This document shows positions 47,371-58,536 of a DNA stretch of 64,000 nt, in pieces (the first letter of the stretch is position 1; every line of letters begins with the position of its first letter). The DNA is taken from positions 1-64,000 of the IMG/VR virus record IMGVR_UViG_3300030518_000006; one strand, given 5' to 3'. Under the pieces are notes generated by a model. That model made no database searches and was not told where the DNA came from. It saw nothing but the letters and a program-made list of their open reading frames with translations. Source of the DNA: a virus. The position numbers and the translations under genes were made by a program.

Positions 47371-47826
47371 ATGACCATATTCCGCCTGACTTCCAAGGGG
47401 GTCGTTCCCGGCCGCCTGATTTCTATCCTCTTCGAGGCCAAGTATACGGGGAACACGATTACGTTTCCCTATGATTGGACGGGTAAGAATGCAACATTGG
47501 CAATGAGCCTCCTTCGTCCCGGTGACCAGAATGTACGCCTGCGGTGGCCAATTCGAATGAGTATCTTCAGTCTCAAGAAGGTGAGCGTGCAGGTTGGGGA
47601 GATTCGTTACAAGCCAGGCGTCTACTCTCCGAATCATAAGGATGGCAGCCTCTACATCCCGTCTCATCAGACCGTCTGGATCACGGATATCGACAAGGGG
47701 GCGCTCATCAAAGGTGAGATGCTCTTGGAACCCCTCGTCGTCGAGCTGGATCGACGCAAAGGCGTCCTCGTCACGGAGGTACCGAATCAGATCAAACCGG
47801 CACCGTTGAAGTTCGTGGCCCGATGA
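47371..47826 (+). CDS. Hypothetical beta-rich protein
   Basis: AGGAGA RBS. Confidence 0.7.
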   Translation: MTIFRLTSKGVVPGRLISILFEAKYTGNTITFPYDWTGKNATLAMSLLRPGDQNVRLRWPIRMSIFSLKKVSVQVGEIRYKPGVYSPNHKDGSLYIPSHQTVWITDIDKGALIKGEMLLEPLVVELDRRKGVLVTEVPNQIKPAPLKFVAR

Positions 47827-47908
47827 TCACCCTCTTCGACTACCTGCTCGCTTTCCCCGACAATACCGAAGCGCGCGAGATGATCGCCCGCATGCCCAAG
47901 GACGATTC

Positions 47909-48454
47909 ATGAGCCTCATCCCTGACTGGGTCCGCGGCATCGACCGCATCCTCGGACGCACCCGCGCGGCCAACACGCTCAAGGTCGAGCCGGTGGCCCT
48001 GGCGACCATTGACGAGGTGCAGTGGGTCCTGTTGTTCGCGCCGAAGCAGCAGATGTTCTGCCTGATCCCCCAGGACGAAGCGCTGCGCGACGGCAACACG
48101 CTCGAGATCCCGTACGATCACATGGTTGAGCTGGCCGAAGCCGAGGGCACCTGCGTGAACCGCAAGAAAGCCCGAGCGCTCGCCAAAGGACTGATTGTCG
48201 ACGGCTGGGAGCCACGAACCTACGTGATGGTGGGCCCCAACACGGAAGGCTACCTGCACGGCCTCAAGATGACGGAGCTGGTCGCCTGGGGTAAGAAGCA
48301 GATAGAGCAACTCACGAAGCTAATGAAGGAGCAAGCCGATGCTCAGCAAGCCCAAGCCGCTGCCGAAGCGCCTGGTGCAGGGGGCGCGGTGGATGCTGGA
48401 CGAATTGCAGCACCAGCGTCTGACGGTGGTGCTGACCCCAGCCCGGGAGGGTGA
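47909..48454 (+). CDS. Hypothetical protein
   Basis: AAGGA RBS, GC3-rich. Confidence 0.7.
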   Translation: MSLIPDWVRGIDRILGRTRAANTLKVEPVALATIDEVQWVLLFAPKQQMFCLIPQDEALRDGNTLEIPYDHMVELAEAEGTCVNRKKARALAKGLIVDGWEPRTYVMVGPNTEGYLHGLKMTELVAWGKKQIEQLTKLMKEQADAQQAQAAAEAPGAGGAVDAGRIAAPASDGGADPSPGG

Positions 48455-48752
48455 GGGCAGCGTTCGGACGGTCATGACCCCAAACCCCGACTGGTACCAG
48501 CGTTTCTGCGCGCGGTATAAATCTGGGCGCCATCGGAAGAACCGGGCCTTCGAGACGAGCGTCCGGCGCCAGAAGACAGAGCGGGCCTTGAAGCGGATCA
48601 TCAGCGGAGAGGTGCATACGATGGCGTACGCGAACCACGGCAAAAGCCCCTACGTCAGCCGGCTGATCCCTGAGATTCGGGACTATCTGCGGCGGGGAGA
48701 TCAAGAGCGGAAAGAGCAGCGAGCACAAAGACTCGCGAGCGTGCCGTTTTGA
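48339..48752 (+). CDS. Hypothetical basic protein
   Basis: AAGGAG RBS; overlaps low-complexity tail of the previous gene. Confidence 0.65.
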   Translation: MLSKPKPLPKRLVQGARWMLDELQHQRLTVVLTPAREGEGSVRTVMTPNPDWYQRFCARYKSGRHRKNRAFETSVRRQKTERALKRIISGEVHTMAYANHGKSPYVSRLIPEIRDYLRRGDQERKEQRAQRLASVPF

Positions 48753-49390
48753 GCGCCAAGCTCACCATCGCCGCTCCACGCCAACCCGTCGCCCAGCTCC
48801 CCATCTGGGACTGGGTTGGCGACGTGCAGTTCTATTCGATGGCCCAGACCCGCAACGCCACAGGAGAATTCTGTGAAGAAGCAACCCGGCATCTCCTCGG
48901 CGGCGAGCGGCTCTCCACCCAAGGAACGGTGGACATCTGCCCGGACATCCGATTGGACGAGCATCGTTATCTTGAGGTTAAATCGGTGGGGGATCGGCGA
49001 TGCGCCCTCCTCTACGAGCATATCCTCGACCGAACAATCCGGTTCGTCCGCCGTAACCGGGTCAAGGTCTTCTATGTCTTCTGGATCCACACCGTTCCCG
49101 CCGCCAAGTGTCCCAGTCTATTCGATTTGCGACGGGCGATGGCCGCATCTATTGATCGTGTCATCATCGTCCCCTTCACCCAGGTGCACGAGGCGATCAA
49201 GGGCATCACGCCCCGGAAGATGAACTACCGGGTCCGGGAGCACAGCGGGGAGCAGATCGCTATGCTCGGCTGGTCGATTCCGGTCAAGCAGCTGAAGGCC
49301 TGGAGCGTCGGACAGCCGCGAATGGCGTTTGACACCGAGGTCTTCGGGTATTCGATGGGTGGGTATCCGGTCTATGGAGACGTGCGATGA
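48749..49390 (+). CDS. PD-(D/E)xK restriction-endonuclease-like protein
   Basis: GEFCEE ... CPDI ... YLEVKS. Confidence 0.7.
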   Translation: MSAKLTIAAPRQPVAQLPIWDWVGDVQFYSMAQTRNATGEFCEEATRHLLGGERLSTQGTVDICPDIRLDEHRYLEVKSVGDRRCALLYEHILDRTIRFVRRNRVKVFYVFWIHTVPAAKCPSLFDLRRAMAASIDRVIIVPFTQVHEAIKGITPRKMNYRVREHSGEQIAMLGWSIPVKQLKAWSVGQPRMAFDTEVFGYSMGGYPVYGDVR

Positions 49391-49527
49391 CCCTTCCCCC
49401 GCCCGTCATCTCGCTTGAGTCGCTGCTCTTCTGGAACCTGGCCGCCGCGGTCGGCATCACACTGCTCGTCCGGTTCTTGGTGCTCTGGCTCGCCCGTACC
49501 CTATTTGGAGAGGGCCATGACCACTGA
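49387..49527 (+). CDS. Small TM protein A (copy 1)
   Basis: 46 aa, identical protein at 52778-52918. Confidence 0.65.
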   Translation: MTLPPPVISLESLLFWNLAAAVGITLLVRFLVLWLARTLFGEGHDH

Positions 49528-49663
49528 GCAGCTATACTACGCGACCGGCATCGCTTCCAATGTTCTGACCATCCTGACCTGCGCCTACACCATCTGGACG
49601 CTCCGCAGCTGGGTGAGCAGCACGGTGAAGAAGGCGCTCGACGACGTGAAGAAAGTGATCTGA
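49517..49663 (+). CDS. Small TM protein B (copy 1)
   Basis: MTTEQLYY..., near-identical copy at 52908-53054. Confidence 0.65.
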   Translation: MTTEQLYYATGIASNVLTILTCAYTIWTLRSWVSSTVKKALDDVKKVI

Positions 49664-49664
49664 C

Positions 49665-50426
49665 ATGCCGAAATACCGCCAGGCGTCCGCGTATTCTCCG
49701 CCCGAGGACCCATTCCCAGTATTGAGGCCCACCATGCCCACCCCCATCCACCCGTGCGATGCACTTACCACACTCGAACCGAAGCAGCAGGGGGCCTTTC
49801 CTGATCCAGTGCGCTTCCCACCGCCGAAGGGCTCGGAGGGTTCCTGCGGCTGCCTCCTGACCGAGTGGCCGAACCCGCTCGATGGAAACCCGCCCTACCA
49901 GAAACTTGAAACGATCTGGCAGCCGCTCTGGGATACCGTCTCGGCCCCAGAAGGCATGAAGGTCATGAACTTCTTCTCCGGCGATCGAGAGGACGACATC
50001 CTCTACGGAGAACGCGACCGCATGGGGTACCAAAAGAAGATGCGCGCCGATAACGGGCGCAGCTTCCCACGTTCCATCGGCGCGATGTTCTGGCCGAAGA
50101 AGTTCACCATGTGGGAGCTCGAGCTGCAGTTCAGTGATCCCAACGGATACGGGGACAGCATCCCCTCGAAGCTCGGCCTGCTCGATACCATCGAAGGCGA
50201 CTTCGCTCGGATCCGGATGCAGATCGGGGAAAAGTGGCATCTCGACCTCCCCTTCGCGTCTTTTTTCAAGGCTAGAGAGGACAACTACCGCGCGGCACTC
50301 TGCACCCCGCTCTTCCTCCCCTCGATACAGAACTTCGGCATCAGCCTGACCTGGCCGCGAGAATCCCGGGCCCGGTGCACTATCCGCTGCGTTCTCAACG
50401 GCTATCTCCACCGCGAAATTCCCTGA
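49665..50426 (+). CDS. Divergent major-capsid-protein-like (single jelly roll) paralog
   Basis: WQPLWDT....FF ... G....PKKF ... QIGEKW.L..P ... PLFLP..QNF.I.L.WP ... I.CVLNG.L.R; recalled SJR-MCP pattern. Confidence 0.55.
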   Translation: MPKYRQASAYSPPEDPFPVLRPTMPTPIHPCDALTTLEPKQQGAFPDPVRFPPPKGSEGSCGCLLTEWPNPLDGNPPYQKLETIWQPLWDTVSAPEGMKVMNFFSGDREDDILYGERDRMGYQKKMRADNGRSFPRSIGAMFWPKKFTMWELELQFSDPNGYGDSIPSKLGLLDTIEGDFARIRMQIGEKWHLDLPFASFFKAREDNYRAALCTPLFLPSIQNFGISLTWPRESRARCTIRCVLNGYLHREIP

Positions 50427-50434
50427 GCCTGACC

Positions 50435-50785
50435 ATGCCCCTCTACCACCTCCTCGCTCAGCCCCTGCCCAAGCTCACTCCCGACGGGAAGCGCGTCTGG
50501 GTCTGCATCTGCGGCCAGAAGGTCGCCCTGCCGAACGTCCAGCCGGCGAGCCAGGTGATCCAGACCTCGAACAACCGGGTGGAGGTCATGGAGTGCCCGG
50601 CCTGCTATGCTGGTACCGAGGAAAAGGGCGAAGAAGCCCCTCCGATGACCGAGCAGGGGGATATCAAACCGACCTTCGACCAAGATCTGGGAGATGCCAC
50701 GGACGACCAATCTGCGCCGGATGAGACGGGTGAAGATGGGGAGGTTCTGGAGGAGGAGAAGGTCGACTTCCCTGACGCGCGATGA
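50435..50785 (+). CDS. Zinc-ribbon protein C with acidic tail (copy 1)
   Basis: CICG ... CPAC; paralog at 53056-53406. Confidence 0.7.
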   Translation: MPLYHLLAQPLPKLTPDGKRVWVCICGQKVALPNVQPASQVIQTSNNRVEVMECPACYAGTEEKGEEAPPMTEQGDIKPTFDQDLGDATDDQSAPDETGEDGEVLEEEKVDFPDAR

Positions 50786-52617
50786 CCCGATATGGAAGCC
50801 TTTGTAGCGGTATTGAAGCAGCCACCGTTGCTTGGGATGGGATGGGATGGGAACCTGCATGGTTTAGCCAGTTCGATCCACAGCGTCCTGAAGGAGATTT
50901 CCCCTCTAGAATACTGGCCCACCACTACCCTGAAGTGCCTAACCTTGGGGATATTACATCTGAGAACTGGCTGACTCGGGCTTCAAGCTATGGCGATATC
51001 GACGTATTGGTTGGTGGAACCCCCTGCCAAGCGTTTTCCATTGCCGGGTTGCGCAAAGGCCTTGAAGATCGCCGGGGCCAATTATCCCTTCGTTTTGTGG
51101 AGATAGCCGATGCCGCAGACCCACCCGTCATCCTCTGGGAAAACGTCCCTGGAGTCCTTAGTGATCGAACCAATGGATTCGGTTGCCTCCTCGCTGGGCT
51201 TGCCGGTGAAGATGTGCCGCTCCAGCCAGCAGGGCGAACATGGTCGAACGCTGGTTGTGTGTTTGGCCCCAAAAGAACAGTCGCATGGCGGGTCCTCGAC
51301 GCCCAATATTTCGGACTGGCCCAACGACGCCGGCGTGTGTTTGTTGTCGCAAGTCCTGGAGCCAGCGGCATCGATCCATGCGAGATTCTATTTGAGTTCG
51401 AAGGCGTGCGCCGGGATTCTCCGCCGAGCCGCGAAGCGGGGGAAAGTACTTCCCATCCAATTGCACCGTGCCCTGATCGGAGTGGTACAGGGTTCAGTCG
51501 AACCGGAGATATCCGGGGACAGGATCCCGTTGTAGTCTGCATTACAGGTGATCGGACTCACGCGCTGAGCGCGGAAGGTGCAGATGCAGGTGAAGATGGA
51601 ACGGGACGGGGAACCCCAATTATCGCTGTCGGAGGAAATAATACTAGCGGCCCTATTACTGTTGCTGCTGCTTTGAATGCGAATAGGGGATGCCCTAACC
51701 CAGGAGACTTTGAGGCTGGAACCTTGCTTGTCGCCTTCGATACGACCCAGATCACTAGTAAGACGAATCGCTGCCAGCCGAAGCACGGAGATCCCTGTCA
51801 CCCTCTTGCTGCTGCTGCTCATCCTCCGGCGATAGCGATCCAGGAGCGAGCGATCTGTGAGAACCCCGATGCTGGACCTGATGGGATCGGGGTTCGCACT
51901 GATGACTGTGCTTATATCCTGGAAGCTCGAGGCGTTTCGCAGGCAGTATGCTTCCACCCGACACAAGACCCGATCCCGAATAGCGATAATATCTGCCATG
52001 CTCTTGGTTGCGGGAACGGTCAGGGGCACGCAGCAGCAGCAGCAGTGAATATCGGGGTTCGGGTCCGCCGTCTTACTCCTCGCGAGTGTGAACGCCTGCA
52101 GGGATTCCCAGATGACTATACTGATATCCCAAAGAAAGTCTTTCGAGGTACCCCGAAAGACTCAGGCCCATGTAAGAAACAAATTGTTGTCGCCACTGTT
52201 GTTTCATTGAACGGCACCCATTATGTTGGCACAAATCATACGATGAACCCTCAAACGACTTGCCCCCGGGCTGGAATGCCAACTGGCGTCGGATATGAAT
52301 TATGTCGCTCAATATGCCAGCAAACGGCACATGCAGAAGTAAACGCTCTTCAGCTTGCGGGCCGTAAAGCTCGCGGAGCAATACTTTATATAGAGGGGCA
52401 CACATACGCTTGTGAGCCTTGCCTTAAAGTAGCTAAAGCCGCCGAGATTAGTTCTATTGTTTTTGGGAAGCCTCCTGGCACCAGCGCCGATGGCCCCCGC
52501 TATAAAGCTCTTGGAAACAGCATGGCTGTCCCGGTAATGCGCTGGTTGGGATGGCGGATCGACAGTGCCTTGCGTACACGTTTGGGTGGGTATCCGGTTT
52601 ATGGGGAGATTCGGTGA
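50782..52617 (+). CDS. dcm: C5-cytosine DNA methyltransferase with long modular TRD and inserted dCMP-deaminase-like domain
   Basis: SLCSGI (I), GGTPCQ (IV), WENVPG (VI), AQRRRRVF (VIII), RRLTPRECERLQGFP (IX), YKALGNS (X); HAEVNA...CEPC between IX and X. Confidence 0.9.
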   Translation: MTRYGSLCSGIEAATVAWDGMGWEPAWFSQFDPQRPEGDFPSRILAHHYPEVPNLGDITSENWLTRASSYGDIDVLVGGTPCQAFSIAGLRKGLEDRRGQLSLRFVEIADAADPPVILWENVPGVLSDRTNGFGCLLAGLAGEDVPLQPAGRTWSNAGCVFGPKRTVAWRVLDAQYFGLAQRRRRVFVVASPGASGIDPCEILFEFEGVRRDSPPSREAGESTSHPIAPCPDRSGTGFSRTGDIRGQDPVVVCITGDRTHALSAEGADAGEDGTGRGTPIIAVGGNNTSGPITVAAALNANRGCPNPGDFEAGTLLVAFDTTQITSKTNRCQPKHGDPCHPLAAAAHPPAIAIQERAICENPDAGPDGIGVRTDDCAYILEARGVSQAVCFHPTQDPIPNSDNICHALGCGNGQGHAAAAAVNIGVRVRRLTPRECERLQGFPDDYTDIPKKVFRGTPKDSGPCKKQIVVATVVSLNGTHYVGTNHTMNPQTTCPRAGMPTGVGYELCRSICQQTAHAEVNALQLAGRKARGAILYIEGHTYACEPCLKVAKAAEISSIVFGKPPGTSADGPRYKALGNSMAVPVMRWLGWRIDSALRTRLGGYPVYGEIR

Positions 52618-52781
52618 TCCATATCGTTCTGTGTTCAGCCGTAGTTCTCCTTATCGTAGGGTTAATGCTTTATGTCACGGAGAGGCGGTTGCGAAGCTGG
52701 CCGGTATTTGTCCGCGTGTTATGGTATACAATGCTCGTTGTGGCAGCCTTCAATACTATGCACGGAGCATTTTTCGAATGA
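52614..52781 (+). CDS. Small two-TM protein (low GC)
   Basis: GTGA and ATGA coupling. Confidence 0.55.
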   Translation: MIHIVLCSAVVLLIVGLMLYVTERRLRSWPVFVRVLWYTMLVVAAFNTMHGAFFE

Positions 52782-52918
52782 CTCTTCCCCCGCCCGTCAT
52801 CTCGCTTGAGTCGCTGCTCTTCTGGAACCTGGCCGCCGCGGTCGGCATCACGCTGCTCGTCCGGTTCTTGGTGCTCTGGCTCGCCCGTACCCTATTCGGA
52901 GAGGGTCATGACCACTGA
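52778..52918 (+). CDS. Small TM protein A (copy 2)
   Basis: Duplicate of 49387-49527. Confidence 0.65.
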   Translation: MTLPPPVISLESLLFWNLAAAVGITLLVRFLVLWLARTLFGEGHDH

Positions 52919-53054
52919 GCAGCTCTACTACGCGACTGGCATCGCCTCCAATGTTCTGACCATCCTGACCTGCGCCTACACCATCTGGACGCTCCGCAGC
53001 TGGGTGGGCAGCACGGTGAAGAAGGCGCTCGACGACGTGAAGAAAGCGATCTGA
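52908..53054 (+). CDS. Small TM protein B (copy 2)
   Basis: Duplicate of 49517-49663. Confidence 0.65.
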   Translation: MTTEQLYYATGIASNVLTILTCAYTIWTLRSWVGSTVKKALDDVKKAI

Positions 53055-53055
53055 C

Positions 53056-53406
53056 ATGCCCCTCTACCACCTCCTCGGCCAGCCTCTCAACATCGACCCC
53101 AACACTGGCAAGCGCATCTGGGTCTGCCTGTGCGGGCAGAAGGTGAGCCTGCCGAATGTCCAGCCGGCGAACCAGGCGATCTCGATCTCCAACAACCGGG
53201 TGGAGGTCATGGAGTGCCCGGCGTGCTACAACGCCACGGATGAGAAGGAGGAAGAGGCCGCGCCGGTCAGCGAGACCGACGGGGAGCTCAAGCCGACCTT
53301 CGATCAGGACATCGGCGAGGCCACTGATGACCAGGAGGCACCTGACGAGACCACCGGCGACGGTGAGGTGCTCAAGGAAGAAAAGGTCGATTTCCCGGAT
53401 ACCTGA
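53056..53406 (+). CDS. Zinc-ribbon protein C with acidic tail (copy 2)
   Basis: CLCG ... CPAC. Confidence 0.7.
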   Translation: MPLYHLLGQPLNIDPNTGKRIWVCLCGQKVSLPNVQPANQAISISNNRVEVMECPACYNATDEKEEEAAPVSETDGELKPTFDQDIGEATDDQEAPDETTGDGEVLKEEKVDFPDT

Positions 53407-53424
53407 GATAGAGTCGCCCGCATC

Positions 53425-53787
53425 ATGGCGACTCTCCTCTATGAGAAACACTACGTCGGTACCGATGAGAACGTACCCACGGGTGAAGAGACCCTCTATT
53501 TCTGGTGCCCTGGCTGTAGAGGCGGTCATATGTACCGCATCAAGCGCAAGGACGGGGATACTCAGCAGCCCTTGTGGACCTGGAATGGCAGCAAGGAGAA
53601 GCCGACCTTCACCCCGTCGCTGCTGTATTACGAGACCGATCCGGTAACGGAGAAGCGCAAGTCGATCTGCCATATCTACGTCACGGGCGGAATGATCCAG
53701 TTCCTCGCGGATTGTCAGCATCACCTCGCTGGGAAAACGGTGCCCATGGTCGATCTGGATCTCCCTCTCAGTGAGCGGGAACGATAG
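53425..53787 (+). CDS. DUF6527-like protein
   Basis: FWCPGC...H; WTWNGS.EKPTFTPSLL; CHIYVT.G.IQFL.DC.H.LAGKTV. Confidence 0.75.
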   Translation: MATLLYEKHYVGTDENVPTGEETLYFWCPGCRGGHMYRIKRKDGDTQQPLWTWNGSKEKPTFTPSLLYYETDPVTEKRKSICHIYVTGGMIQFLADCQHHLAGKTVPMVDLDLPLSERER

Positions 53788-53803
53788 GCAGTACCGCTAC
53801 GGC

Positions 53804-53831
53804 TTGACTTTCATTCCGCGCCATCCATACT
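53804..53831 (+). promoter_or_regulatory. Candidate promoter, possibly leaderless transcript
   Basis: TTGACT-16 nt-CATACT, 7 nt before ATG 53839, no RBS. Confidence 0.5.
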
Positions 53832-53838
53832 GCGGCTC

Positions 53839-54324
53839 ATGGGTTACACCCGCACCCCGGCGCACTACACCGCTAGCGCTGCCTATCACGGCGGCGATCC
53901 GGTGTGGATCCGCCCTGCCAATCTCGACCTGCGCCGTATCAACCCCCAAGGCGGGGCCGCGCTCGGCGACGACGGCATTGACCTGATCGCGATGATCCCC
54001 CAGCTGACCCAGACCCTGGCAACCGTGGGCACCACGGCAGTCCAGTTGCGGGAACAGCAGATCCAGAACCAACGCCAGGACGCGAACCAGGCCCAAGCCG
54101 TCGCCGCGACGAATGCGCAGACCGCCGCCCTGGAGCAAGCAACGGCGGCGAACCAAGCCGTCGCCGACCCAACCGCATCGCCTGCGGCGGTACCGACTCC
54201 AGGCGTGTCACTTCCCACCCCGCACGGCAAGAAGGGGGGCGGCATGACTGTCCCCCTGATCATCGGGGGTACCGTCATCGGGATTGCCGTGGTTCTGGCA
54301 TTGCTCAAGCTCCGCCGGGGCTGA
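53839..54324 (+). CDS. Putative virion membrane protein (C-terminal anchor)
   Basis: Ends PLIIGGTVIGIAVVLALLKLRRG; AALGD motif. Confidence 0.75.
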   Translation: MGYTRTPAHYTASAAYHGGDPVWIRPANLDLRRINPQGGAALGDDGIDLIAMIPQLTQTLATVGTTAVQLREQQIQNQRQDANQAQAVAATNAQTAALEQATAANQAVADPTASPAAVPTPGVSLPTPHGKKGGGMTVPLIIGGTVIGIAVVLALLKLRRG

Positions 54325-54325
54325 T

Positions 54326-55540
54326 ATGGCCCGGTCCTACCAGCCCAACCTCGGGGCGCTCGAGCAGGCCCGGTACCAACACATGCACCGGAGAGCACGC
54401 AACCAGCTGGCCGGGTTGGGAGACGCATCCGTTCCGTACGTCCCGTCGGTCGCGGTCCAGGCAGCGATGACCCCGAACCTGACGGGCAGTGGCCCGACCA
54501 TGACCCAGACCGCAGCGGTCACCGCCACCATGAAGTCGGCAATCATCGCCGCGGCGGTTGAGGTGTCCCTGGCCCAGACCATCGTCTCCACTGTCGGGGA
54601 TGCCGTTATCAGCGCGGCCACAGTCGCCGCTGCCACGGCAATCACCGGTACTGCGGTCGCCGCAGGAGCCGCCGCCACGTCTGCATGCTTGTCCGCCGGG
54701 TGCTGCTGGCCGATTGTCGGGTGGGCCTTCGACGCCTTGGTGATCATCGGGGAATTCATCTCCAGCCAATCCGCCAAGCGCCAGACGGCGTTCGTGATCC
54801 AAGAGACCAAGGATCATATCAGCGCCTATGGCCAGGCGGCCCAGGCCGAGATCGACGCCATGCAACTCCAGATCGGGCAGTCCGTCTACCCGACCGCACA
54901 GGCCCTGGCTGCGTCGACCCAGGCCCTCAACGGCTTCAACGGACTCGGGGGTCTGCCGCCGTGGGCTCGGGAAGTGATCTCCAAGGTCCAGGTCGATCTG
55001 ATCAAGCAGGTCGGCAATCTGATCCTGAGTACCGGTGAACTCGGGGCCAAGATCGTGGGGGACAAGCATGGGGAAGAACTGGCTGCTAAGAAAAAGAAGC
55101 AGTTCGACGACAACTCGGACCGGGTCCAGCAGATGTTCTCCGGCAAGCTCAAGAACCCCTACCGGATGTTCGCCGACGGGCTCGACGATATCGGGCGCAC
55201 CCTCGGGGGTGAGCAGGGCGTGCACGTGATCAACCAGAAGTGCTCTGAACTCCAGACGGCGGCCGAGGCAGACATCGATACCTGGAAGACCCAGACCGAG
55301 GCGGTGCTCCAGACCCCCGACTACACCCAAGCGGTCACCGTCAACATCGCCAAGGCCCTACGCGCGGACCCGAGTTTTACCGCCAATGTCACCACGATCG
55401 CGGCCAACAACCAGATGCTGGTGGCCTACTTCAACGGACTCAACGGGCTCTCCACCGACTCGTCCCGAGCGAACAGCGCCGGTGGCTTGGTGGCGACCCT
55501 CGGAGGCATCGCTGCCGCCCTCTATTTCTTTAAGCATTGA
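54326..55540 (+). CDS. Putative virion membrane/penetration protein
   Basis: LAGLGD, FNGLGG motifs; Ala-rich hydrophobic hairpin ..WPIVGWA..; C-terminal TM. Confidence 0.75.
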   Translation: MARSYQPNLGALEQARYQHMHRRARNQLAGLGDASVPYVPSVAVQAAMTPNLTGSGPTMTQTAAVTATMKSAIIAAAVEVSLAQTIVSTVGDAVISAATVAAATAITGTAVAAGAAATSACLSAGCCWPIVGWAFDALVIIGEFISSQSAKRQTAFVIQETKDHISAYGQAAQAEIDAMQLQIGQSVYPTAQALAASTQALNGFNGLGGLPPWAREVISKVQVDLIKQVGNLILSTGELGAKIVGDKHGEELAAKKKKQFDDNSDRVQQMFSGKLKNPYRMFADGLDDIGRTLGGEQGVHVINQKCSELQTAAEADIDTWKTQTEAVLQTPDYTQAVTVNIAKALRADPSFTANVTTIAANNQMLVAYFNGLNGLSTDSSRANSAGGLVATLGGIAAALYFFKH

Positions 55541-55564
55541 AATACCAACCATACCCCCTATCCT
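55537..55564 (+). promoter_or_regulatory. Candidate sigma70 promoter
   Basis: TTGAAA-16 nt-TATCCT upstream of 55622. Confidence 0.5.
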
Positions 55565-55621
55565 GGCATCATCCGCTCTCATGAGCCCCGCGCCAACTTC
55601 TCCTTTCTAGGAACCCTACCC

Positions 55622-56293
55622 ATGGCTGGCTACCCCTCGATCAATGCTCCCGGCGCCCGTTCGCTCGCGGTGCCCCCGCCCAAGAGCCTGAAGATCCCGC
55701 TCGGGCGCCGACTGGACGCCAAGATGGCGAAGAACCTCATGTCCGCCCGCCCCAAGCGCGTGCCGCGCGACAATGGCGGCGGCGGGTTCTTCCCCGGCAT
55801 GGGTGAAGAGATGGACGAGACCGAGGTCAAGGTCGGGTACTCCGATCTCGGCCGGTGGTACGGCCCGAACCAGCGCCGCCCGGCGACCAGCGGCATGGCG
55901 CGCACCAATCGCCTTGCCGGCCTGGGCGACACCCCGACCGCCGGCTCCGGCACCCCCGGTGCGGCCACCGCGGCTCCCGCCCCGATCATCAAGCGCGTGC
56001 CCAATACCCCGCGTCACCTGGTGACCCAAGGCACCCCGACATCGATCTCCTCGGTCTCCGGCCTCGGCGCGCTGCACGCGGCAGCCCACGCCGCCCACGC
56101 CAAGACCAAGCATGCGGCGATCGTCAAGCACGCGGCGATCAAGGTGCACAAGCTCGCCCCGGCACACGACGGGTTCATGCCCGGCTTCGGCGCCTTCGAC
56201 ATGGCGAGCCTGACCAGCCCCAAGATGCTCATCGGCGGGGCGCTCGCCTTCGGCGCCTGGTATTTCCTGCTCCGCAAGAAGCGCCGCGCCTGA
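55622..56293 (+). CDS. Basic virion protein with multiple hxG(L/F/M)G motifs and C-terminal anchor
   Basis: FPGMGE, LAGLGD, VSGLGA, MPGFGA; ends ALAFGAWYFLLRKKRRA. Confidence 0.75.
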   Translation: MAGYPSINAPGARSLAVPPPKSLKIPLGRRLDAKMAKNLMSARPKRVPRDNGGGGFFPGMGEEMDETEVKVGYSDLGRWYGPNQRRPATSGMARTNRLAGLGDTPTAGSGTPGAATAAPAPIIKRVPNTPRHLVTQGTPTSISSVSGLGALHAAAHAAHAKTKHAAIVKHAAIKVHKLAPAHDGFMPGFGAFDMASLTSPKMLIGGALAFGAWYFLLRKKRRA

Positions 56294-56296
56294 GCC

Positions 56297-56746
56297 ATGG
56301 GCTGGCTGACCCCCGAGATCACCGCCCCCGTCACCCTGAAGCTCACCGCTGATGACGTGCGGCGCGAGGCCCTGGGGCGGATCCTGTCGCTCTCCGGGGC
56401 AAGTGTCGGCATCATCGGGGGCATCCTGATCCTGTCCGCGAATCCGGCGCTCAAGGGCGCGGTCACCGCCGGACAGGGCCAGACCATCACCCTGAGCGTC
56501 GCGGACGCCAAGAAGAGCGCCCTGGGCAAGTCCTTGGCCCTCATCGGTACTGGCATCGGTGTGGCAGGCTCCCTGCTGGTGATGAGCTCGAACCCGAAGT
56601 CCAAGGCCAAATTCGCGTCCGCCTATGACGCCCTGCCCGCCGGACTCAAGACCCACAAGAACGTGCTGATGGCCCTCGGTGGTGCCGCCGTGGTCGGCGG
56701 GATCGCCTACATGCTCAAACTCCAGAACTCGCAGTACGCCACATGA
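56297..56746 (+). CDS. Three-TM membrane protein
   Basis: Three Gly-rich hydrophobic segments. Confidence 0.75.
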   Translation: MGWLTPEITAPVTLKLTADDVRREALGRILSLSGASVGIIGGILILSANPALKGAVTAGQGQTITLSVADAKKSALGKSLALIGTGIGVAGSLLVMSSNPKSKAKFASAYDALPAGLKTHKNVLMALGGAAVVGGIAYMLKLQNSQYAT

Positions 56747-58536
56747 GCGACAACATCTTCACCCCGGTCGGCAACACGGACGAGGCGTCGGCCCTGATGG
56801 GAACCAGCGGCCGGGTCTGGTCCCCCTTCTCCCCGTTCTTCAACCAGCGCGCCGCGGTGAAGCGAGACTTCGCCGAAGAGCGCGGCCGGTTCAAGCGCAT
56901 CATGCGCCGCAATCCCCTCTCCGAGCAGGAGAAGCTCGCCCTGGTCAGCGGCACCGATCCCAAGGCTATCGTCCCGGTCACTGCCTCGCTCGCCGTCGGC
57001 GGCTTGATCGTGAACCGTGCTTGGGAGGATGCCGCTGACTACTGCGAGTATCTGGTCCGCCACTACCATTCCCGGATAGGTGGTGCGCGAGCGAAGGCGG
57101 ACGCTGCGCGAGCGAAGAAGGGGCAGGGCCCGAAGATCATATCCAGTTCAGCCATTACCTGGGCGGTGGCGTTCAGCGCCATCGGCCAATACTGCAGGGC
57201 CCTGGCCGAGGGCCGGGAGCCGACGCGCCCTGCGCGCACCATCGCCGACCGGAAGGTGGGGGCGGTGATCTCGATGTGGGATGACGTCCGCAAGTCCTGC
57301 CTGGCCGCGGAGGGCAACGTCAAGCTGCCGTTTGCCGCCTATTCCGAGATGCCGGTGGTGACCTGCCCCGGTGCCGGTGGGGTGACCAAGTTCTCCGGCC
57401 TGACGGGCAAGACCCTCGGCGTGGCAGTGCCAACCGGTCCCGATGTCCGCGGTTGCGCGTCCTTCTGCTACTCCCTGAAGGCCTTCGGCAAGCCCACCTG
57501 CGTCGCCCGCCAGCTGATCCTGACCCTCGGCGCGGCTGTGGATCCGGTGCGCCACGCCCAGGTAGTCACCGAGCAGATGACCAAGCTCGCCAAGAAGGGG
57601 ACCAAGATCCTGCGCCTGTTTGTCGATGGGGACTTCCGCAGCGAAGCCTCGATCATTGCCTGGATGGACCACTGCGTCCGCCCGCTGCATGCGCTCGGCG
57701 TCACCGTCTATGGGTACAGCAAGTCGTGGGAGCATCTCCATGCCGTGCACCGGCAGAAGGGCGCATCCTGGTGGCCGACCAACTATGTGATGAACATCTC
57801 GAGCGGCAGCCGCTTCGCATCGGATCCGACCTGGCAGGCGCGCATCCGTGAACTGCCGGTTGCCCGCGGCGGTTTCCTGGCGGTGGATCCAATCCAGCGT
57901 CTGCTGTGGAAGGCGATGACCAAGGTTCACGGTGAAGCGGTCTGGCAGAAGTACTGCAACGCGGCCAGCCGACACGTCGGTCACCCCGGTGCGGCCGAGA
58001 AGCTCCTGCATGCTGTGAAGTCCATGATTGGCAAGGCGAACCCGGCCCTCGTCACCGATTACAACAACTACGTCAACACCATCCACATCATCGAGAATAA
58101 GCCGAGTGTGCTCAAGCGCATCGCCTCGATCGCCGGCGAGAAGGCACTCAAGCCGGGCCCAGTTGTCCAGGCCAGCACCTGGGCCTTCTTGTCCGAGCTG
58201 GTCAAGGGGCAGGAGATGCCGTGCCCGATCGCATGCGGGTCGTGCCCAAAGACCGCGATCATCACCCACGACAAGGTTGTGCGCGCCGCCTTGCAGCCGG
58301 AGCTCGATGCCCTCGGGGCCGAAATGCAGAAGAAGCACGGGATCTCGGAGAAGGAGCGCCGAGACTGGGAGGAACACGTCCGGGGCACCGACGCGACGAC
58401 CGTGTCTGCTGGCGAGGCTGAGGCCCGCAAGAACTACCGCGCCCAGGTCGCCGCCCAGATCGAGAAGGGCTCACCGCTCATGCACTGGTGCGGGAACAAG
58501 AAGATGAAGCAAGACATCATCATCGGGTTGCATTGA
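56743..58536 (+). CDS. GP88-like Cys-motif protein with N-terminal RRNP
   Basis: TCPGAG ... CASFCY ... LRLFVDGDF ... YGYSKSW ... PTNYVMNISSGS; CPIACGSC. Confidence 0.7.
   Translation: MSDNIFTPVGNTDEASALMGTSGRVWSPFSPFFNQRAAVKRDFAEERGRFKRIMRRNPLSEQEKLALVSGTDPKAIVPVTASLAVGGLIVNRAWEDAADYCEYLVRHYHSRIGGARAKADAARAKKGQGPKIISSSAITWAVAFSAIGQYCRALAEGREPTRPARTIADRKVGAVISMWDDVRKSCLAAEGNVKLPFAAYSEMPVVTCPGAGGVTKFSGLTGKTLGVAVPTGPDVRGCASFCYSLKAFGKPTCVARQLILTLGAAVDPVRHAQVVTEQMTKLAKKGTKILRLFVDGDFRSEASIIAWMDHCVRPLHALGVTVYGYSKSWEHLHAVHRQKGASWWPTNYVMNISSGSRFASDPTWQARIRELPVARGGFLAVDPIQRLLWKAMTKVHGEAVWQKYCNAASRHVGHPGAAEKLLHAVKSMIGKANPALVTDYNNYVNTIHIIENKPSVLKRIASIAGEKALKPGPVVQASTWAFLSELVKGQEMPCPIACGSCPKTAIITHDKVVRAALQPELDALGAEMQKKHGISEKERRDWEEHVRGTDATTVSAGEAEARKNYRAQVAAQIEKGSPLMHWCGNKKMKQDIIIGLH

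What the first reader, a model, noticed from the sequence alone, without database searches (positions are those of the whole stretch)
50782..52617. Cytosine methyltransferase with an in-frame cytidine/dCMP deaminase domain (candidate methylate-and-deaminate enzyme)
Seen: the C5-MTase motifs I, IV, VI, VIII, IX and X are intact. Between motif IX (RRLTPRECERLQGFPDDYT) and motif X (DGPRYKALGNS) sits a roughly 100-aa lower-GC insert (about 52165-52467): GPCKKQIVVA...CPR...ELC...HAEVNAL...GAILY...ACEPC...AEI..IVF. Established: HxE plus CxxC is the zinc/catalytic signature of CDA-superfamily dCMP deaminases, and IX and X are normally a few residues apart. I do not know of a described fusion of this kind. 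Inference: either a tethered nucleotide-pool enzyme (dCMP/5m-dCMP to dUMP/dTMP) or a sequence-targeted DNA editor converting flipped C/5mC to U/T, for mutagenesis, host DNA attack or anti-restriction.
Basis: partly seen in the sequence, partly recalled or inferred. Interest (0 to 1): 0.9.

Follow-up and report, generated by a model that had tools for sequence, protein, structure and literature searches.

The report
Cytosine methyltransferase with embedded mini-deaminase
An uncultured virus has one gene in which a very small zinc deaminase is built into a surface loop of a DNA cytosine methyltransferase, and the same small deaminase proves to be a habitual fused or overlapping-gene partner of DNA methyltransferases in many phages, an apparently undescribed link between making 5-methylcytosine and deaminating cytosine compounds.

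Summary
ORF 50782-52617 (611 aa) is an intact C5 DNA methyltransferase. About 109 aa (52132-52488), inserted between motifs IX and X, pass Pfam's cut-off for the cytidine/dCMP deaminase family. The exact protein occurs on 58 contigs, and about 20 diverged clusters share the junctions, so it is not an assembly artefact.

New here:
- The insert belongs to a large, virus-borne family of stand-alone "mini-deaminases" of 105-150 aa (539 representatives). HAE and CxxC are near-invariant, and four extra Cys probably hold a second zinc.
- Sequence and fold are closest to dCMP deaminases, not DNA-editing deaminases, but three canonical core elements are missing.
- The family is tied to DNA methyltransferases. 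It is inserted at the same site in two distant C5 lineages. In 9 of 21 stand-alone locus groups it overlaps or abuts a methyltransferase gene from one of three families.
- The methyltransferase part is multispecific, with six shuffled target-recognition cassettes.
- The gene is a compositionally foreign cassette.

Best reading (about 0.45): a bifunctional enzyme whose deaminase acts on free cytosine nucleotides (dCMP or 5-methyl-dCMP) linked to methylation. A DNA-editing role is not excluded (about 0.13). The scan's first-stage reader noted this same feature twice on this genome; I found no such note for other DNA.

The parts
50782..52617 (+). Whole gene: C5 DNA methyltransferase with an embedded mini-deaminase, 611 aa. 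Its ATG overlaps the stop of the upstream ORF 50375-50785 (ATGA).
50794..51351 (+). Methyltransferase catalytic core, motifs I to VIII: CSGIE at 50794-50832, PCQ Cys82 at 51013-51051, ENV at 51127-51162, QxRxR at 51295-51351.
   Evidence: In the AF2 model, pLDDT is mostly 80-98 over aa 1-210 (71 for aa 31-40), and Foldseek's best match is M.HhaI at E 1.5e-11.
51433..52053 (+). Variable region of six target-recognition-like cassettes (A-F, aa 218-424).
   Evidence: Each cassette recurs in 25-87 of 131 homologues, in 57 different orders and combinations. Model confidence here is low.
52066..52122 (+). Motif IX (RRLTPRECERLQGFPDDYT).
52132..52488 (+). Inserted segment (aa 451-569). It replaces the roughly 10-aa linker of insert-less homologues.
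52162..52470 (+). Mini-deaminase core (aa 461-563): strand1-strand2, Zn-held cap, helix2 (HAE), strand3, helix3 (CxxC), strand4.
   Evidence: PF00383 scores above its cut-off. AF2 of the domain alone gives pLDDT 94. The best PDB matches are dCMP deaminases.
52330..52338 (+). HAE: the catalytic Zn ligand His517 and the proton-shuttle Glu519.
   Evidence: Present in 146 of 148 family representatives together with CxxC. H, A and E are invariant or nearly invariant in alignments A2 and A3.
52411..52422 (+). CEPC: the CxxC pair of catalytic Zn ligands (Cys544, Cys547).
52171..52317 (+). Four further conserved Cys (C464, C494 of CPR, C508, C512). [quoted passage not shown]
   Evidence: All four are at least 90% conserved in A2 and A3. 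C464, C494 and C512 align with Cys of the S. mutans dCMP deaminase; C508 falls at a Glu there. The feature is described for dCMP deaminases in PMC3239186. Zinc binding itself is inferred.
52489..52551 (+). Motif X (DGPRYKALGNSMAVPVMRWLG), which returns the chain to the cofactor-binding domain.
52583..52620 (+). 3' tail of the gene (GGYPVYGEIR + stop). It is a repeat of 49356-49393, the end of ORF 48749-49390, and marks the cassette junction.

Best explanation
The gene encodes one polypeptide with two enzymes.

**Enzyme 1: a multispecific phage-type C5 DNA methyltransferase.** All catalytic motifs are intact. Six interchangeable target-recognition cassettes suggest that it methylates several different sequences, protecting viral DNA from restriction.

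**Enzyme 2: a roughly 105-aa zinc deaminase of the CDA fold.** It sits in the surface loop between motifs IX and X. It belongs to a virus-borne mini-deaminase clade whose nearest characterised relatives are dCMP deaminases.

**Most likely mechanism.** The deaminase acts on a free cytosine nucleotide: dCMP, and probably 5-methyl-dCMP released when methylated DNA is broken down. It converts these to dUMP or dTMP. This removes methylated cytosine nucleotides from the pool and feeds thymidylate supply. The methyltransferase works on DNA independently.

**Why the two are joined.** The fusion, like the overlapping gene pairs found elsewhere, secures co-expression of two functionally linked activities. 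The loop was used because it tolerates insertions.

**Shown:**
- the architecture and its conservation
- the fold and the catalytic signature
- the family's kinship with dCMP deaminases
- the association with methyltransferases

**Inferred:**
- catalytic activity
- the substrate
- the biological purpose
For: **The fusion is real and conserved.**
- The exact protein is on 58 contigs.
- The same junctions occur in about 20 clusters at 44-68% identity. The insert itself is 57-68% identical among them, about as conserved as the catalytic core.

**The deaminase looks catalytically competent.**
- PF00383 scores above its cut-off.
- HAE plus CxxC occurs in 146 of 148 representatives.
- The confident model shows a deaminase core.

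**Its nearest relatives act on nucleotides.**
- The family profile hits S. mutans dCMP deaminase 2hvv (E 8.7e-8), T4 Cd 1vq2, S-TIM5 4p9c and human DCTD.
- Foldseek's top PDB hits are PBCV-1 bi-DCD and human DCTD.
- VIA-align gives Z 7.0-7.5 for five dCMP deaminases. The DNA deaminases score lower: DddB 4.7, AID 3.4, APOBEC3G 3.0, DddA 2.7-3.0.
- Viral models named dCMP deaminase come first in the viral library.
[quoted passage not shown] Iyer et al. state that this cap restricts access to a soluble substrate (PMC3239186).

**Most family members stand alone in phage DNA-metabolism modules.**
- Most are stand-alone proteins of 105-150 aa.
- They sit in phage replication or nucleotide modules: PolA/primase, DnaB, RNR, helicase.

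**The family is linked to cytosine methylation.**
- The insert sits at the equivalent site in a second, distant C5 lineage (P0213, P0256, P0265).
- In 9 of 21 stand-alone locus groups the deaminase gene lies beside an MTase gene on the same strand. In eight of the nine the start and stop overlap by 1-4 nt; in L101 the MTase start is uncertain.
- Every MTase detected in those loci is the immediate neighbour of the deaminase.

**Nothing suggests action on the virus's own DNA.**
- CpG odds ratio is 1.01.
- CCGG, GCGC, GGCC and CGCG have O/E 0.92-1.06.
- CCWGG has O/E 1.10.

**The loop tolerates insertions.** 25 homologues carry other, unrelated inserts of 38-235 aa in the same loop.

**From established knowledge, not tested here.** Animal dCMP deaminase deaminates 5-methyl-dCMP to dTMP, and this keeps 5mC out of the salvage pool.
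Against: **No activity or substrate was measured.**

**The domain is not a canonical dCMP deaminase.**
- Helix 1, helix 4 and strand 5 are absent in the model.
- The TxxxT motif and the conserved Tyr are missing, and the NxxP spacing differs.
- ComEB TIGR02571 scores 13 bits against a cut-off of 219.
- Substrate inference from relatives is therefore weak. The Z scores of about 7 are in the range the tool calls middling, and guanine, cytidine and tRNA deaminases score only slightly lower.

**A purely metabolic link does not obviously explain the tight coupling.** Examples are translational coupling with three different MTase families and repeated in-frame insertion at one site. A shared DNA substrate or a physical complex would explain these more directly.

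**Genome context gives little support for a dTMP-supply role.**
- The virus has no thymidylate synthase of its own.
- Its genome is 63% GC, so extra dTMP supply is not an evident need.

**The 5-methyl-dCMP idea is my inference.** No tool result speaks to it.
Confidence: 0.45

Rival explanations
1. DNA-level coupling. The embedded deaminase acts on cytosine or 5-methylcytosine in DNA at or beside the sites chosen by the methyltransferase's recognition cassettes, giving U or T. Possible roles are attack on host or competitor DNA, mutagenesis, or an unknown modification route.
For: - The deaminase is tightly and repeatedly coupled to DNA MTases of three families, by in-frame insertion and by overlapping genes.
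- The insertion point lies about 10 residues before the GNS of motif X, which lines the cofactor and catalytic pocket (for positions; the role of motif X is from knowledge of M.HhaI).
- DNA deaminases as small as 108 aa exist (DddB, 9k3e).
- Pfam MafB19-deam gives a weak hit at 20.5 bits.
Against: - The nearest sequence and fold relatives are nucleotide deaminases. DNA deaminases score Z 2.7-4.7 against 7.0-7.5.
- The Zn-held cap, said to exclude polymers, is kept.
- The MafB19 hit is below its cut-off of 27.
- The virus genome shows no loss of CpG or of typical C5 target palindromes.
- The same deaminase is retained in related phages L006 and L007 beside two unrelated MTases, so it cannot share a tailored docking surface or a sequence specificity with both.
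- Over half of the stand-alone relatives have no MTase next to them.
- In a screen of deaminase clades, ssDNA activity was reported for five clades, and the dCMP clade was not among those named (bioRxiv 10.1101/2023.05.21.541555).
Confidence: 0.13
2. Ordinary dCMP deaminase with no mechanistic tie to methylation. Both genes belong to the early DNA-metabolism module of phages, and the IX-X loop happens to tolerate insertions. The fusion and the adjacency would then be by-products of gene order and compaction.
For: - The loop carries many other unrelated inserts.
- Stand-alone members sit beside polymerase, primase, helicase and RNR genes.
- One source names a cluster member 'deoxycytidylate deaminase'.
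- A single origin of all inserted forms is not rejected (AU p 0.52).
Against: - Nine of 21 locus groups have an MTase as the immediate same-strand neighbour, and eight of them overlap it by 1-4 nt.
- All nine MTases found in the sampled loci are immediate neighbours; none lies further off.
- Adjacency is scattered across the deaminase tree, needing 7 changes for 8 rows.
- The insert occurs in two MTase lineages that share only 34% identity in the core.
- I did not compute a formal background rate, so the strength of this argument is a judgement.
Confidence: 0.17
3. The deaminase acts on another small molecule tied to methyltransferase chemistry. One candidate is the adenine ring of the product inhibitor S-adenosylhomocysteine. 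Another is a cytosine analogue such as an aza-cytosine nucleotide, which traps C5 methyltransferases on DNA.
For: - The insert is anchored next to motif X, at the cofactor pocket (structural role from knowledge of M.HhaI).
- CDA-fold enzymes include adenine-acting members (TadA), which score Z 5.9-6.3 here.
- The coupling to MTases of different families fits a product or inhibitor common to all of them.
- The MTase-dependent toxicity of 5-azacytidine in E. coli is established knowledge, not tested here.
Against: - There is no direct evidence.
- The known SAH deaminases belong to another superfamily (my knowledge).
- The many family members without an adjacent MTase are not explained.
- The closest relatives act on dCMP.
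Confidence: 0.08
4. The insert is a non-catalytic zinc module, serving for example dimerisation or DNA clamping, or the ORF is an assembly chimera.
For: - The core lacks helix 1, helix 4 and strand 5, so one sheet face is exposed and may need a partner.
- No read-level check was possible.
Against: - HAE, including the catalytic Glu, and CxxC are kept in 146 of 148 representatives. That is not expected of a purely structural module.
- The identical protein is on 58 contigs, and the same junctions occur in about 20 diverged clusters.
Confidence: 0.04

Closest known systems
Multispecific phage C5 DNA methyltransferases (Bacillus phages SPR, phi3T, rho11s; from my knowledge) and the cytosine-methylase half of phage P1 Dmt
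   Same: - Orphan phage C5 MTase with several target-recognition modules in tandem between motifs VIII and IX.
- Here there are six cassettes, shuffled among homologues.
- P1 Dmt matches aa 4-597 in two pieces at 45% identity.
   Different: None of these is described with a domain between motifs IX and X. The target sequences of this enzyme are unknown.
dCMP deaminases: T4 Cd (1vq2), S. mutans ComEB-type (2hvv), cyanophage S-TIM5 (4p9c), PBCV-1 bi-DCD (7fh4), human DCTD (2w4l)
   Same: - HAExNA and CxxC zinc site.
[quoted passage not shown]
- These are the best sequence-profile and fold matches.
   Different: - About 105 aa instead of 135-190.
- No helix 1, helix 4 or strand 5.
- No TxxxT motif and no conserved Tyr.
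- Four Cys, rather than Cys/His, in the second site.
- No allosteric region.
- Far below the ComEB model cut-off.
E. coli dcm-vsr overlapping gene pair (my knowledge, not tested here)
   Same: A C5 methyltransferase gene overlaps the gene of a small enzyme that deals with a consequence of 5-methylcytosine. Here the start and stop overlap in eight loci.
   Different: Vsr is a T:G mismatch endonuclease that reverses 5mC deamination. The partner here is itself a deaminase.
Phage C5-methyltransferase plus TET/5mYOX hypermodification modules (abstract of bioRxiv 10.1101/2023.12.21.572611)
   Same: A phage cytosine methyltransferase is genetically coupled to a second enzyme that could process its product.
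   Different: There the second enzyme is a dioxygenase acting on 5mC in DNA, and this is shown experimentally. Here it is a CDA-fold deaminase of unknown substrate. I did not look for TET, glycosyltransferase or other tailoring genes in this genome.
DNA cytosine deaminases (DddA, DddB, SsdA, MafB19 clade, AID/APOBEC)
   Same: CDA fold with an HxE/CxxC zinc site. Some are as small as about 110 aa.
   Different: - Lower structural similarity: Z 2.7-4.7.
- The MafB19 model scores below its cut-off.
- Those enzymes lack the dCMP-type zinc cap (PMC3239186).
- They are toxins or immunity factors, not partners of methyltransferases.

Membership tests
C5 DNA methyltransferase (Pfam PF00145, NCBIfam TIGR00675) | Model score above the curated cut-off | tested here: met
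   PF00145 scores 123.5 bits against a cut-off of 22. TIGR00675 scores 118.7 against 100.65.
C5 DNA methyltransferase (Pfam PF00145, NCBIfam TIGR00675) | Catalytic motifs: IV PC(Q) Cys, VI ENV, VIII QxRxR, X GN(S/A), and cofactor motif I | tested here: met
   Cys82, E120-N121-V122, Q181/R183/R185 and G578-N579-S580 lie at nearly invariant columns of 126 homologues. Motif I is the lineage's CSGIE variant.
C5 DNA methyltransferase (Pfam PF00145, NCBIfam TIGR00675) | Fold like M.HhaI/M.HaeIII | tested here: met
   Foldseek gives M.HhaI at E 1.5e-11 and M.HaeIII at E 1e-10 over about 200 columns of the catalytic domain. The recognition region is modelled poorly.
C5 DNA methyltransferase (Pfam PF00145, NCBIfam TIGR00675) | Transfers methyl from SAM to C5 of cytosine in DNA | not testable with these tools
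   Needs an enzyme assay or methylome sequencing.
Multispecific phage C5 methyltransferases | Several independent target-recognition modules in tandem between motifs VIII and IX | tested here: met
   Six cassettes recur independently in 120 of 131 homologues, in 57 arrangements. That each reads a different target is inferred.
CDA / cytidine-deoxycytidylate deaminase superfamily (Pfam PF00383) | Model score above the curated cut-off | tested here: met
   29.1 bits (protein scan) and 33.7 bits (genome scan) against a cut-off of 25.
CDA / cytidine-deoxycytidylate deaminase superfamily (Pfam PF00383) | HxE in helix 2 and (P)CxxC in helix 3 as zinc and catalytic residues | tested here: met
   HAE is at 517-519 and CEPC at 544-547. 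The pair is kept in 146 of 148 representatives.
CDA / cytidine-deoxycytidylate deaminase superfamily (Pfam PF00383) | Complete core fold: helix1-strand1-strand2-helix2-strand3-helix3-strand4-(helix4)-strand5 | tested here: not met
   The model (pLDDT 94) has strands 1-4 and helices 2-3 only. Helix 1, helix 4 and strand 5 are absent, as in the 105-120-aa stand-alone relatives. It is a truncated version of the fold.
dCMP deaminase / ComE clade (features as listed by Iyer et al. 2011, PMC3239186) | [quoted passage not shown] | tested here: met
   C464, C494, C508 and C512 are at least 90% conserved. C464, C494 and C512 align with Cys of S. mutans dCMP deaminase. All four ligands are Cys, rather than the two Cys plus one His of the canonical insert.
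dCMP deaminase / ComE clade (features as listed by Iyer et al. 2011, PMC3239186) | NA motif following the HxE motif (read here as the HAExNA pattern) | tested here: met
   HAEVNAL in the window protein and in most MTase-embedded forms. The motif varies in stand-alone members.
dCMP deaminase / ComE clade (features as listed by Iyer et al. 2011, PMC3239186) | NxxP at the end of strand 2 | tested here: inconclusive
   The Asn is nearly invariant and a Pro is common in the family consensus, but the spacing is N-x4-P (TNHTMNP) rather than NxxP.
dCMP deaminase / ComE clade (features as listed by Iyer et al. 2011, PMC3239186) | TxxxT in strand 3 and Tyr between strand 4 and helix 4 | tested here: not met
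   Strand 3 reads AILYIEGHTY. After strand 4 comes IVFGKPPG, the position is not conserved, and helix 4 is absent.
dCMP deaminase / ComE clade (features as listed by Iyer et al. 2011, PMC3239186) | Equivalog model score (ComEB TIGR02571) | tested here: not met
   13.2 bits against a cut-off of 219.45.
dCMP deaminase / ComE clade (features as listed by Iyer et al. 2011, PMC3239186) | Deaminates dCMP to dUMP | not testable with these tools
   Needs an enzyme assay.
DNA-acting deaminases (MafB19, DddA/SCP1.201, AID/APOBEC) | Family model above cut-off, or clear fold kinship | tested here: inconclusive
   MafB19-deam scores 20.5 bits against a cut-off of 27. Structural Z is 2.7-4.7, lower than for nucleotide deaminases. 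A weak match does not exclude the function.

The most novel reading that the evidence does not exclude
The methyltransferase's recognition cassettes and base flipping deliver a chosen cytosine, or its methylated product, to the embedded deaminase. The protein would then be a natural, protein-guided, sequence-specific C/5mC-to-U/T DNA editor. The stand-alone mini-deaminases encoded in overlap with methyltransferase genes would do the same as two-subunit systems.
Probability: 0.13. Interest if true: 0.9.

Novelty: new variant of a known kind. Interest (0 to 1): 0.62.

Why it matters
Both domains are familiar. I found neither of the following in the papers I could search:
- a C5 DNA methyltransferase with a deaminase built into its IX-X loop
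- the wider rule that a virus-specific roughly 105-aa deaminase clade travels with DNA methyltransferases

**If the deaminase works on 5-methyl-dCMP.** This would be the first viral or bacterial counterpart of the animal safeguard that keeps methylated cytosine out of nucleotide salvage. It would also explain why the two genes are kept together.

**If it works on DNA.** This would be a natural sequence-targeted cytosine editor.

**In either case.**
- The clade offers some of the smallest CDA-fold deaminases known. That is of practical interest for compact base editors.
- The IX-X loop is identified as a site where C5 methyltransferases accept whole domains.
- The question is directly testable. 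Cultured carriers of the split form exist (Stenotrophomonas phage Silvanus), and the fused protein can be expressed in laboratory E. coli.

Tried and rejected

Gene contexts came from IMG/VR, GTDB and GenBank loci instead.
- Model coordinates are not exposed.

**Physical complex**
- I ran complex prediction on the Paraburkholderia-MAG methyltransferase (L018) with its overlapping stand-alone deaminase. It gave no verdict: score 0.23 against a mark of 0.32. I count this neither for nor against binding.

**Independent origin of the inserts in the two MTase lineages**
- The free tree separates them, with 98-99 SH-aLRT for the P0213 group.
- An AU test does not reject a single clade of all embedded forms (p 0.52).
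- I therefore claim only 'same site in two distant MTase lineages', not two separate insertion events.

**Class of the phrog_757 methyltransferases that neighbour the deaminase**
- No Pfam or PDB sequence match was found.
- hhalign to the C5 profile puts PC on PCQ and ENP on ENV, but at probability 2.8% and E 0.016. Their C5 nature is not established.

**Searches that returned little**
- Cellular genomes: 1 of 401 Burkholderiales genomes has a family member at E <= 1e-15. The family is rare in cells and this gave no more contexts.
- The viral scan with P0152 found nothing.
- Phage relatives of the whole window: only a 200-nt stretch of the MTase core matches known phages.

**Readings considered and dropped**
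- Intein or mobile-element reading of the insert: no such family matched in the Pfam or NCBIfam scans, the domain is a deaminase, and the flanking MTase residues are continuous with insert-less homologues.
- Restriction-modification-like reading, in which the deaminase attacks unmethylated foreign DNA and the MTase protects self DNA: the same deaminase sits beside unrelated MTases in L006 and L007, so specificities could not be matched.

Full report
**1. The observation**

The ORF 50782-52617 on the + strand is open and encodes 611 aa.
- Pfam finds the C5 DNA methylase family in two stretches (E 1.6e-35). Between them, at aa 461-562, it finds the cytidine/deoxycytidylate deaminase zinc-binding family at 29.1 bits (cut-off 25). 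A six-frame scan of the whole 96,773-bp virus record gives 33.7 bits for the same place and finds no other deaminase.
- NCBIfam's dcm superfamily model is passed.
- Motifs I, IV (Cys82), VI, VIII, IX and X sit on columns that are nearly invariant in an alignment of 126 homologues.
- Insert-less homologues join motif IX to motif X by about ten residues (…IPWRGKPADQCPDGPRYK…). By that comparison the inserted segment is aa 451-569, or 52132-52488.

The identical protein is on record from 58 contigs, and about twenty diverged clusters have the same junctions. An assembly chimera is therefore very unlikely. I could not obtain read-level support.

**2. The methyltransferase part**

The predicted structure is confident for the catalytic domain and matches M.HhaI and M.HaeIII.

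The region between motifs VIII and IX (aa 218-424) consists of six stretches of about 35 aa.
- Each recurs on its own in 25 to 87 of 131 homologues.
- They occur in 57 different orders and combinations.
- This is the pattern of the multispecific phage C5 methyltransferases. I infer that the enzyme methylates several target sequences.

The gene is the only C5 methylase of the virus.

Its GC3 is 0.47, against 0.73-0.86 in neighbouring genes. The insert (0.40) is only a little lower than the rest of the gene (0.48).

The gene lies between two copies of a duplicated unit, and its last eleven codons are part of that repeat.

The whole fused gene therefore came in as a foreign cassette. The deaminase was not inserted in this genome.

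**3. The insert as a protein family**

A full HMMER pass over 1.84 billion representatives with the 118-aa segment finds 539 proteins at E <= 0.001 and 283 at E <= 1e-10.
- Most are stand-alone proteins of 105-150 aa.
- One database cluster carries the name deoxycytidylate deaminase from a Caudoviricetes assembly.
- The protein-atlas neighbours are 80-100% viral.
- HAE followed by CxxC is present in 146 of 148 representatives.
- Four further cysteines are at least 90% conserved: the Cys of GxC before strand 1, the Cys of CPR, and two more before HAE.
- The family is rare in cells: 1 of 401 Burkholderiales genomes.

A model of the segment alone is confident (pLDDT 94). It shows strand 1, strand 2, a long cap with one short helix, helix 2 (HAE), strand 3, helix 3 (CxxC) and strand 4. 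Helix 1, helix 4 and strand 5 of the canonical fold are absent.

**4. Nearest relatives of the insert**

| Search | Best matches |
|---|---|
| Family profile against PDB sequences | S. mutans dCMP deaminase (E 8.7e-8), T4 Cd, cyanophage S-TIM5 dCMP deaminase, RibD, human DCTD |
| Foldseek | PBCV-1 dCMP/dCTP deaminase and human DCTD first |
| Exhaustive structural search | Five dCMP deaminases at Z 7.0-7.5; guanine, cytidine and tRNA deaminases at Z 6-7; DddB 4.7, AID 3.4, APOBEC3G 3.0, DddA 2.7-3.0 |
| Viral model library | Phage dCMP deaminases lead |

I compared the segment with the features that Iyer et al. list for the dCMP deaminase clade (PMC3239186).
- Different: the spacing of NxxP.
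- Absent: TxxxT and the Tyr after strand 4.
- The ComEB equivalog model is far from passed.

I therefore file the segment as a distinct, truncated, virus-specific clade next to the dCMP deaminases, not as a member of them. The same paper states that the cap restricts the dCMP deaminase pocket to a soluble substrate.

**5. The link with methyltransferases**

This is the main new result.

*(a) Embedded forms.* In the window's MTase lineage the embedded forms cluster together in the deaminase tree, with weak support.

*(b) A second lineage.* A distant lineage of small phage C5 methylases shares 34% identity with the window's core. It carries the deaminase at the equivalent place, just before motif X (P0213 and the fragments P0256 and P0265).

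*(c) Stand-alone deaminase genes beside MTase genes.*
- In eight sampled loci the deaminase gene starts on the stop codon of an upstream MTase gene, or ends on the start of a downstream one:
  - L006 and L008 (small C5 lineage)
  - L017 and L018 (the window's own lineage, in an alphaproteobacterial MAG and a Paraburkholderia MAG)
  - L108 and L104 (other PF00145 enzymes)
  - L007 and the cultured Stenotrophomonas phage Silvanus (phrog_757 'DNA methyltransferase')
  - Sources.
- In a ninth locus, L101, a phrog_757 MTase lies directly downstream of the deaminase, but its start is uncertain.
- That is 9 of the 21 locus groups I looked at.
- Every methyltransferase detected in these loci is the immediate neighbour of the deaminase.
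- Phages L006 and L007 are syntenic. They keep the same deaminase but have different methyltransferase families upstream.
- The adjacent cases are scattered over the deaminase tree.

*Caveats.*
- The deaminase start codons were chosen by homology.
- Some loci are related to each other.
- I did not compute a background adjacency rate.
- An AU test does not reject a single origin of all embedded forms (p 0.52).

*Other contexts.* The remaining stand-alone genes lie beside PolA and primase, DnaB, ribonucleotide reductase, helicase-primase, a Mom-like protein or a primase-helicase.

**6. The insertion site**

Among homologues of the window's lineage, 70 have a short IX-X loop. Another 25 carry other, unrelated inserts of 38-235 aa, and 18 carry the deaminase. 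This sample is enriched for deaminase carriers by my searches. The loop is thus a general permissive site. This weakens any argument from the position of the insert alone.

**7. Evidence on action on DNA**

The 63% GC genome shows none of the erosion expected if the virus's own methylated sites were being deaminated.
- CpG odds ratio is 1.01.
- CCGG, GCGC, GGCC and CGCG have observed/expected ratios of 0.92-1.06.
- CCWGG is at 1.10.

The targets are unknown, so this is weak evidence. The virus has no thymidylate synthase of either type.

**8. Interpretation**

The architecture, fold, conserved catalytic residues and methyltransferase association are shown. Activity, substrate and purpose are inferred.

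The kinship with capped nucleotide deaminases and the many stand-alone members in replication modules favour a free cytosine nucleotide as substrate. The only nucleotide-level reason I can offer for a specific tie to cytosine methyltransferases is 5-methyl-dCMP. It is released when methylated DNA is degraded, and it would be converted to dTMP, as animal dCMP deaminase does (established knowledge, not tested here).

I give about 0.45 to this reading, in which the nucleotide deaminase is functionally tied to methylation. The alternatives are:

| Reading | Probability |
|---|---|
| Ordinary dCMP deaminase joined by gene order alone | about 0.17 |
| Action on DNA at or near the methyltransferase's sites | about 0.13 |
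| Another small molecule of methyltransferase chemistry (SAH, aza-cytosine nucleotides) | about 0.08 |
| Non-catalytic module or artefact | about 0.04 |

**9. Literature and earlier notes**

Eight full-text searches and three papers read found no description of a C5 methyltransferase with an embedded deaminase, or of a deaminase-methyltransferase gene pair. The library lacks most subscription journals, so this is not proof of novelty.

The scan's own notes hold two first-stage readings of this same feature and of the flanking duplication on this genome. On other genomes they hold notes on a radical-SAM methylase fused to a dCMP deaminase, and on cytosine-methylating thymidylate-synthase modules with a deaminase. 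I took these only as leads for the methylate-then-deaminate idea at nucleotide level and did not test them.

Noticed in passing
window 49356-49680 / 52583-53071 and 50434-50775 / 53055-53399: Direct repeats at 71-95% identity duplicate a unit made of a gene end (GGYPVY..R), an 82-aa membrane protein gene and an acidic zinc-ribbon protein gene. Different genes lie between the copies: a 253-aa ORF, and the methyltransferase-deaminase. This looks like a cassette-exchange region.
   Followed up: partly
window 50782-52617 versus neighbours: The gene's GC3 is 0.47, against 0.73-0.86 for the seven other genes measured. This indicates recent acquisition from a lower-GC source.
   Followed up: yes
L008:5998-6615: A stand-alone mini-deaminase, itself overlapping an upstream C5 methylase gene, is fused at its C-terminus to a RusA-like Holliday-junction resolvase domain (phrog_244, E 4.9e-9).
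   Followed up: no
P0126, P0146, P0154, P0155 (418-607 aa; no locus held): The same mini-deaminase is embedded in, or ends, proteins with long N- and C-terminal regions of no known family. These proteins start with a shared motif, MKTIDT.KLW. They form one group in the deaminase tree.
   Followed up: no
homologues P0014-P0115, loop between motifs IX and X: At least four other recurrent, unrelated inserts occupy the same loop. Examples are about 38 aa reading …NGWRKMD..ETPEQC..GLEVKQ..KTGKWRVKD, about 35 aa reading YQR.QKRAAKHG.SFEAELRKRGK.LRG, 170 aa in P0077 and 235 aa in P0084. Their functions are unknown.
   Followed up: partly
whole virus record (G000, 96,773 bp): AAGCTT occurs 2 times (both strands) against 26 expected. 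GGWCC has O/E 0.64 and CTAG 0.42, while GC-rich 4-mer palindromes are at expectation. This hints at which host restriction sites the virus avoids rather than methylates.
   Followed up: no
window 5613-10490, 17766-19559, 47371-58536: The record encodes a 1625-aa protein with a family-A DNA polymerase domain only at its C-terminal end, and an SNF2-type helicase. Nine of the ten ORFs I scanned in the methyltransferase's surroundings (window 47371-58536) have no PHROG match. No GenBank phage is related beyond a 200-nt methylase segment. First-stage notes suggest a tailless membrane-containing virus. I did not test that.
   Followed up: no
L115 (Stenotrophomonas phage Silvanus MZ326867, 37180-38267): A cultured phage carries the split form. 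CPT_Silvanus_054 (annotated hypothetical, contains the mini-deaminase) overlaps by 4 nt the start of CPT_Silvanus_055 (methyltransferase, phrog_757 type), and a DNA primase gene follows. In Xanthomonas phage Pfeifenkraut the deaminase frame is unannotated, and small opposite-strand ORFs are annotated over it.
   Followed up: partly
L103:3587-4114: A Mom-like DNA modification protein (phrog_1384, E 1e-41) lies about 260 nt downstream of a stand-alone mini-deaminase. This is another DNA-modification neighbour.
   Followed up: no
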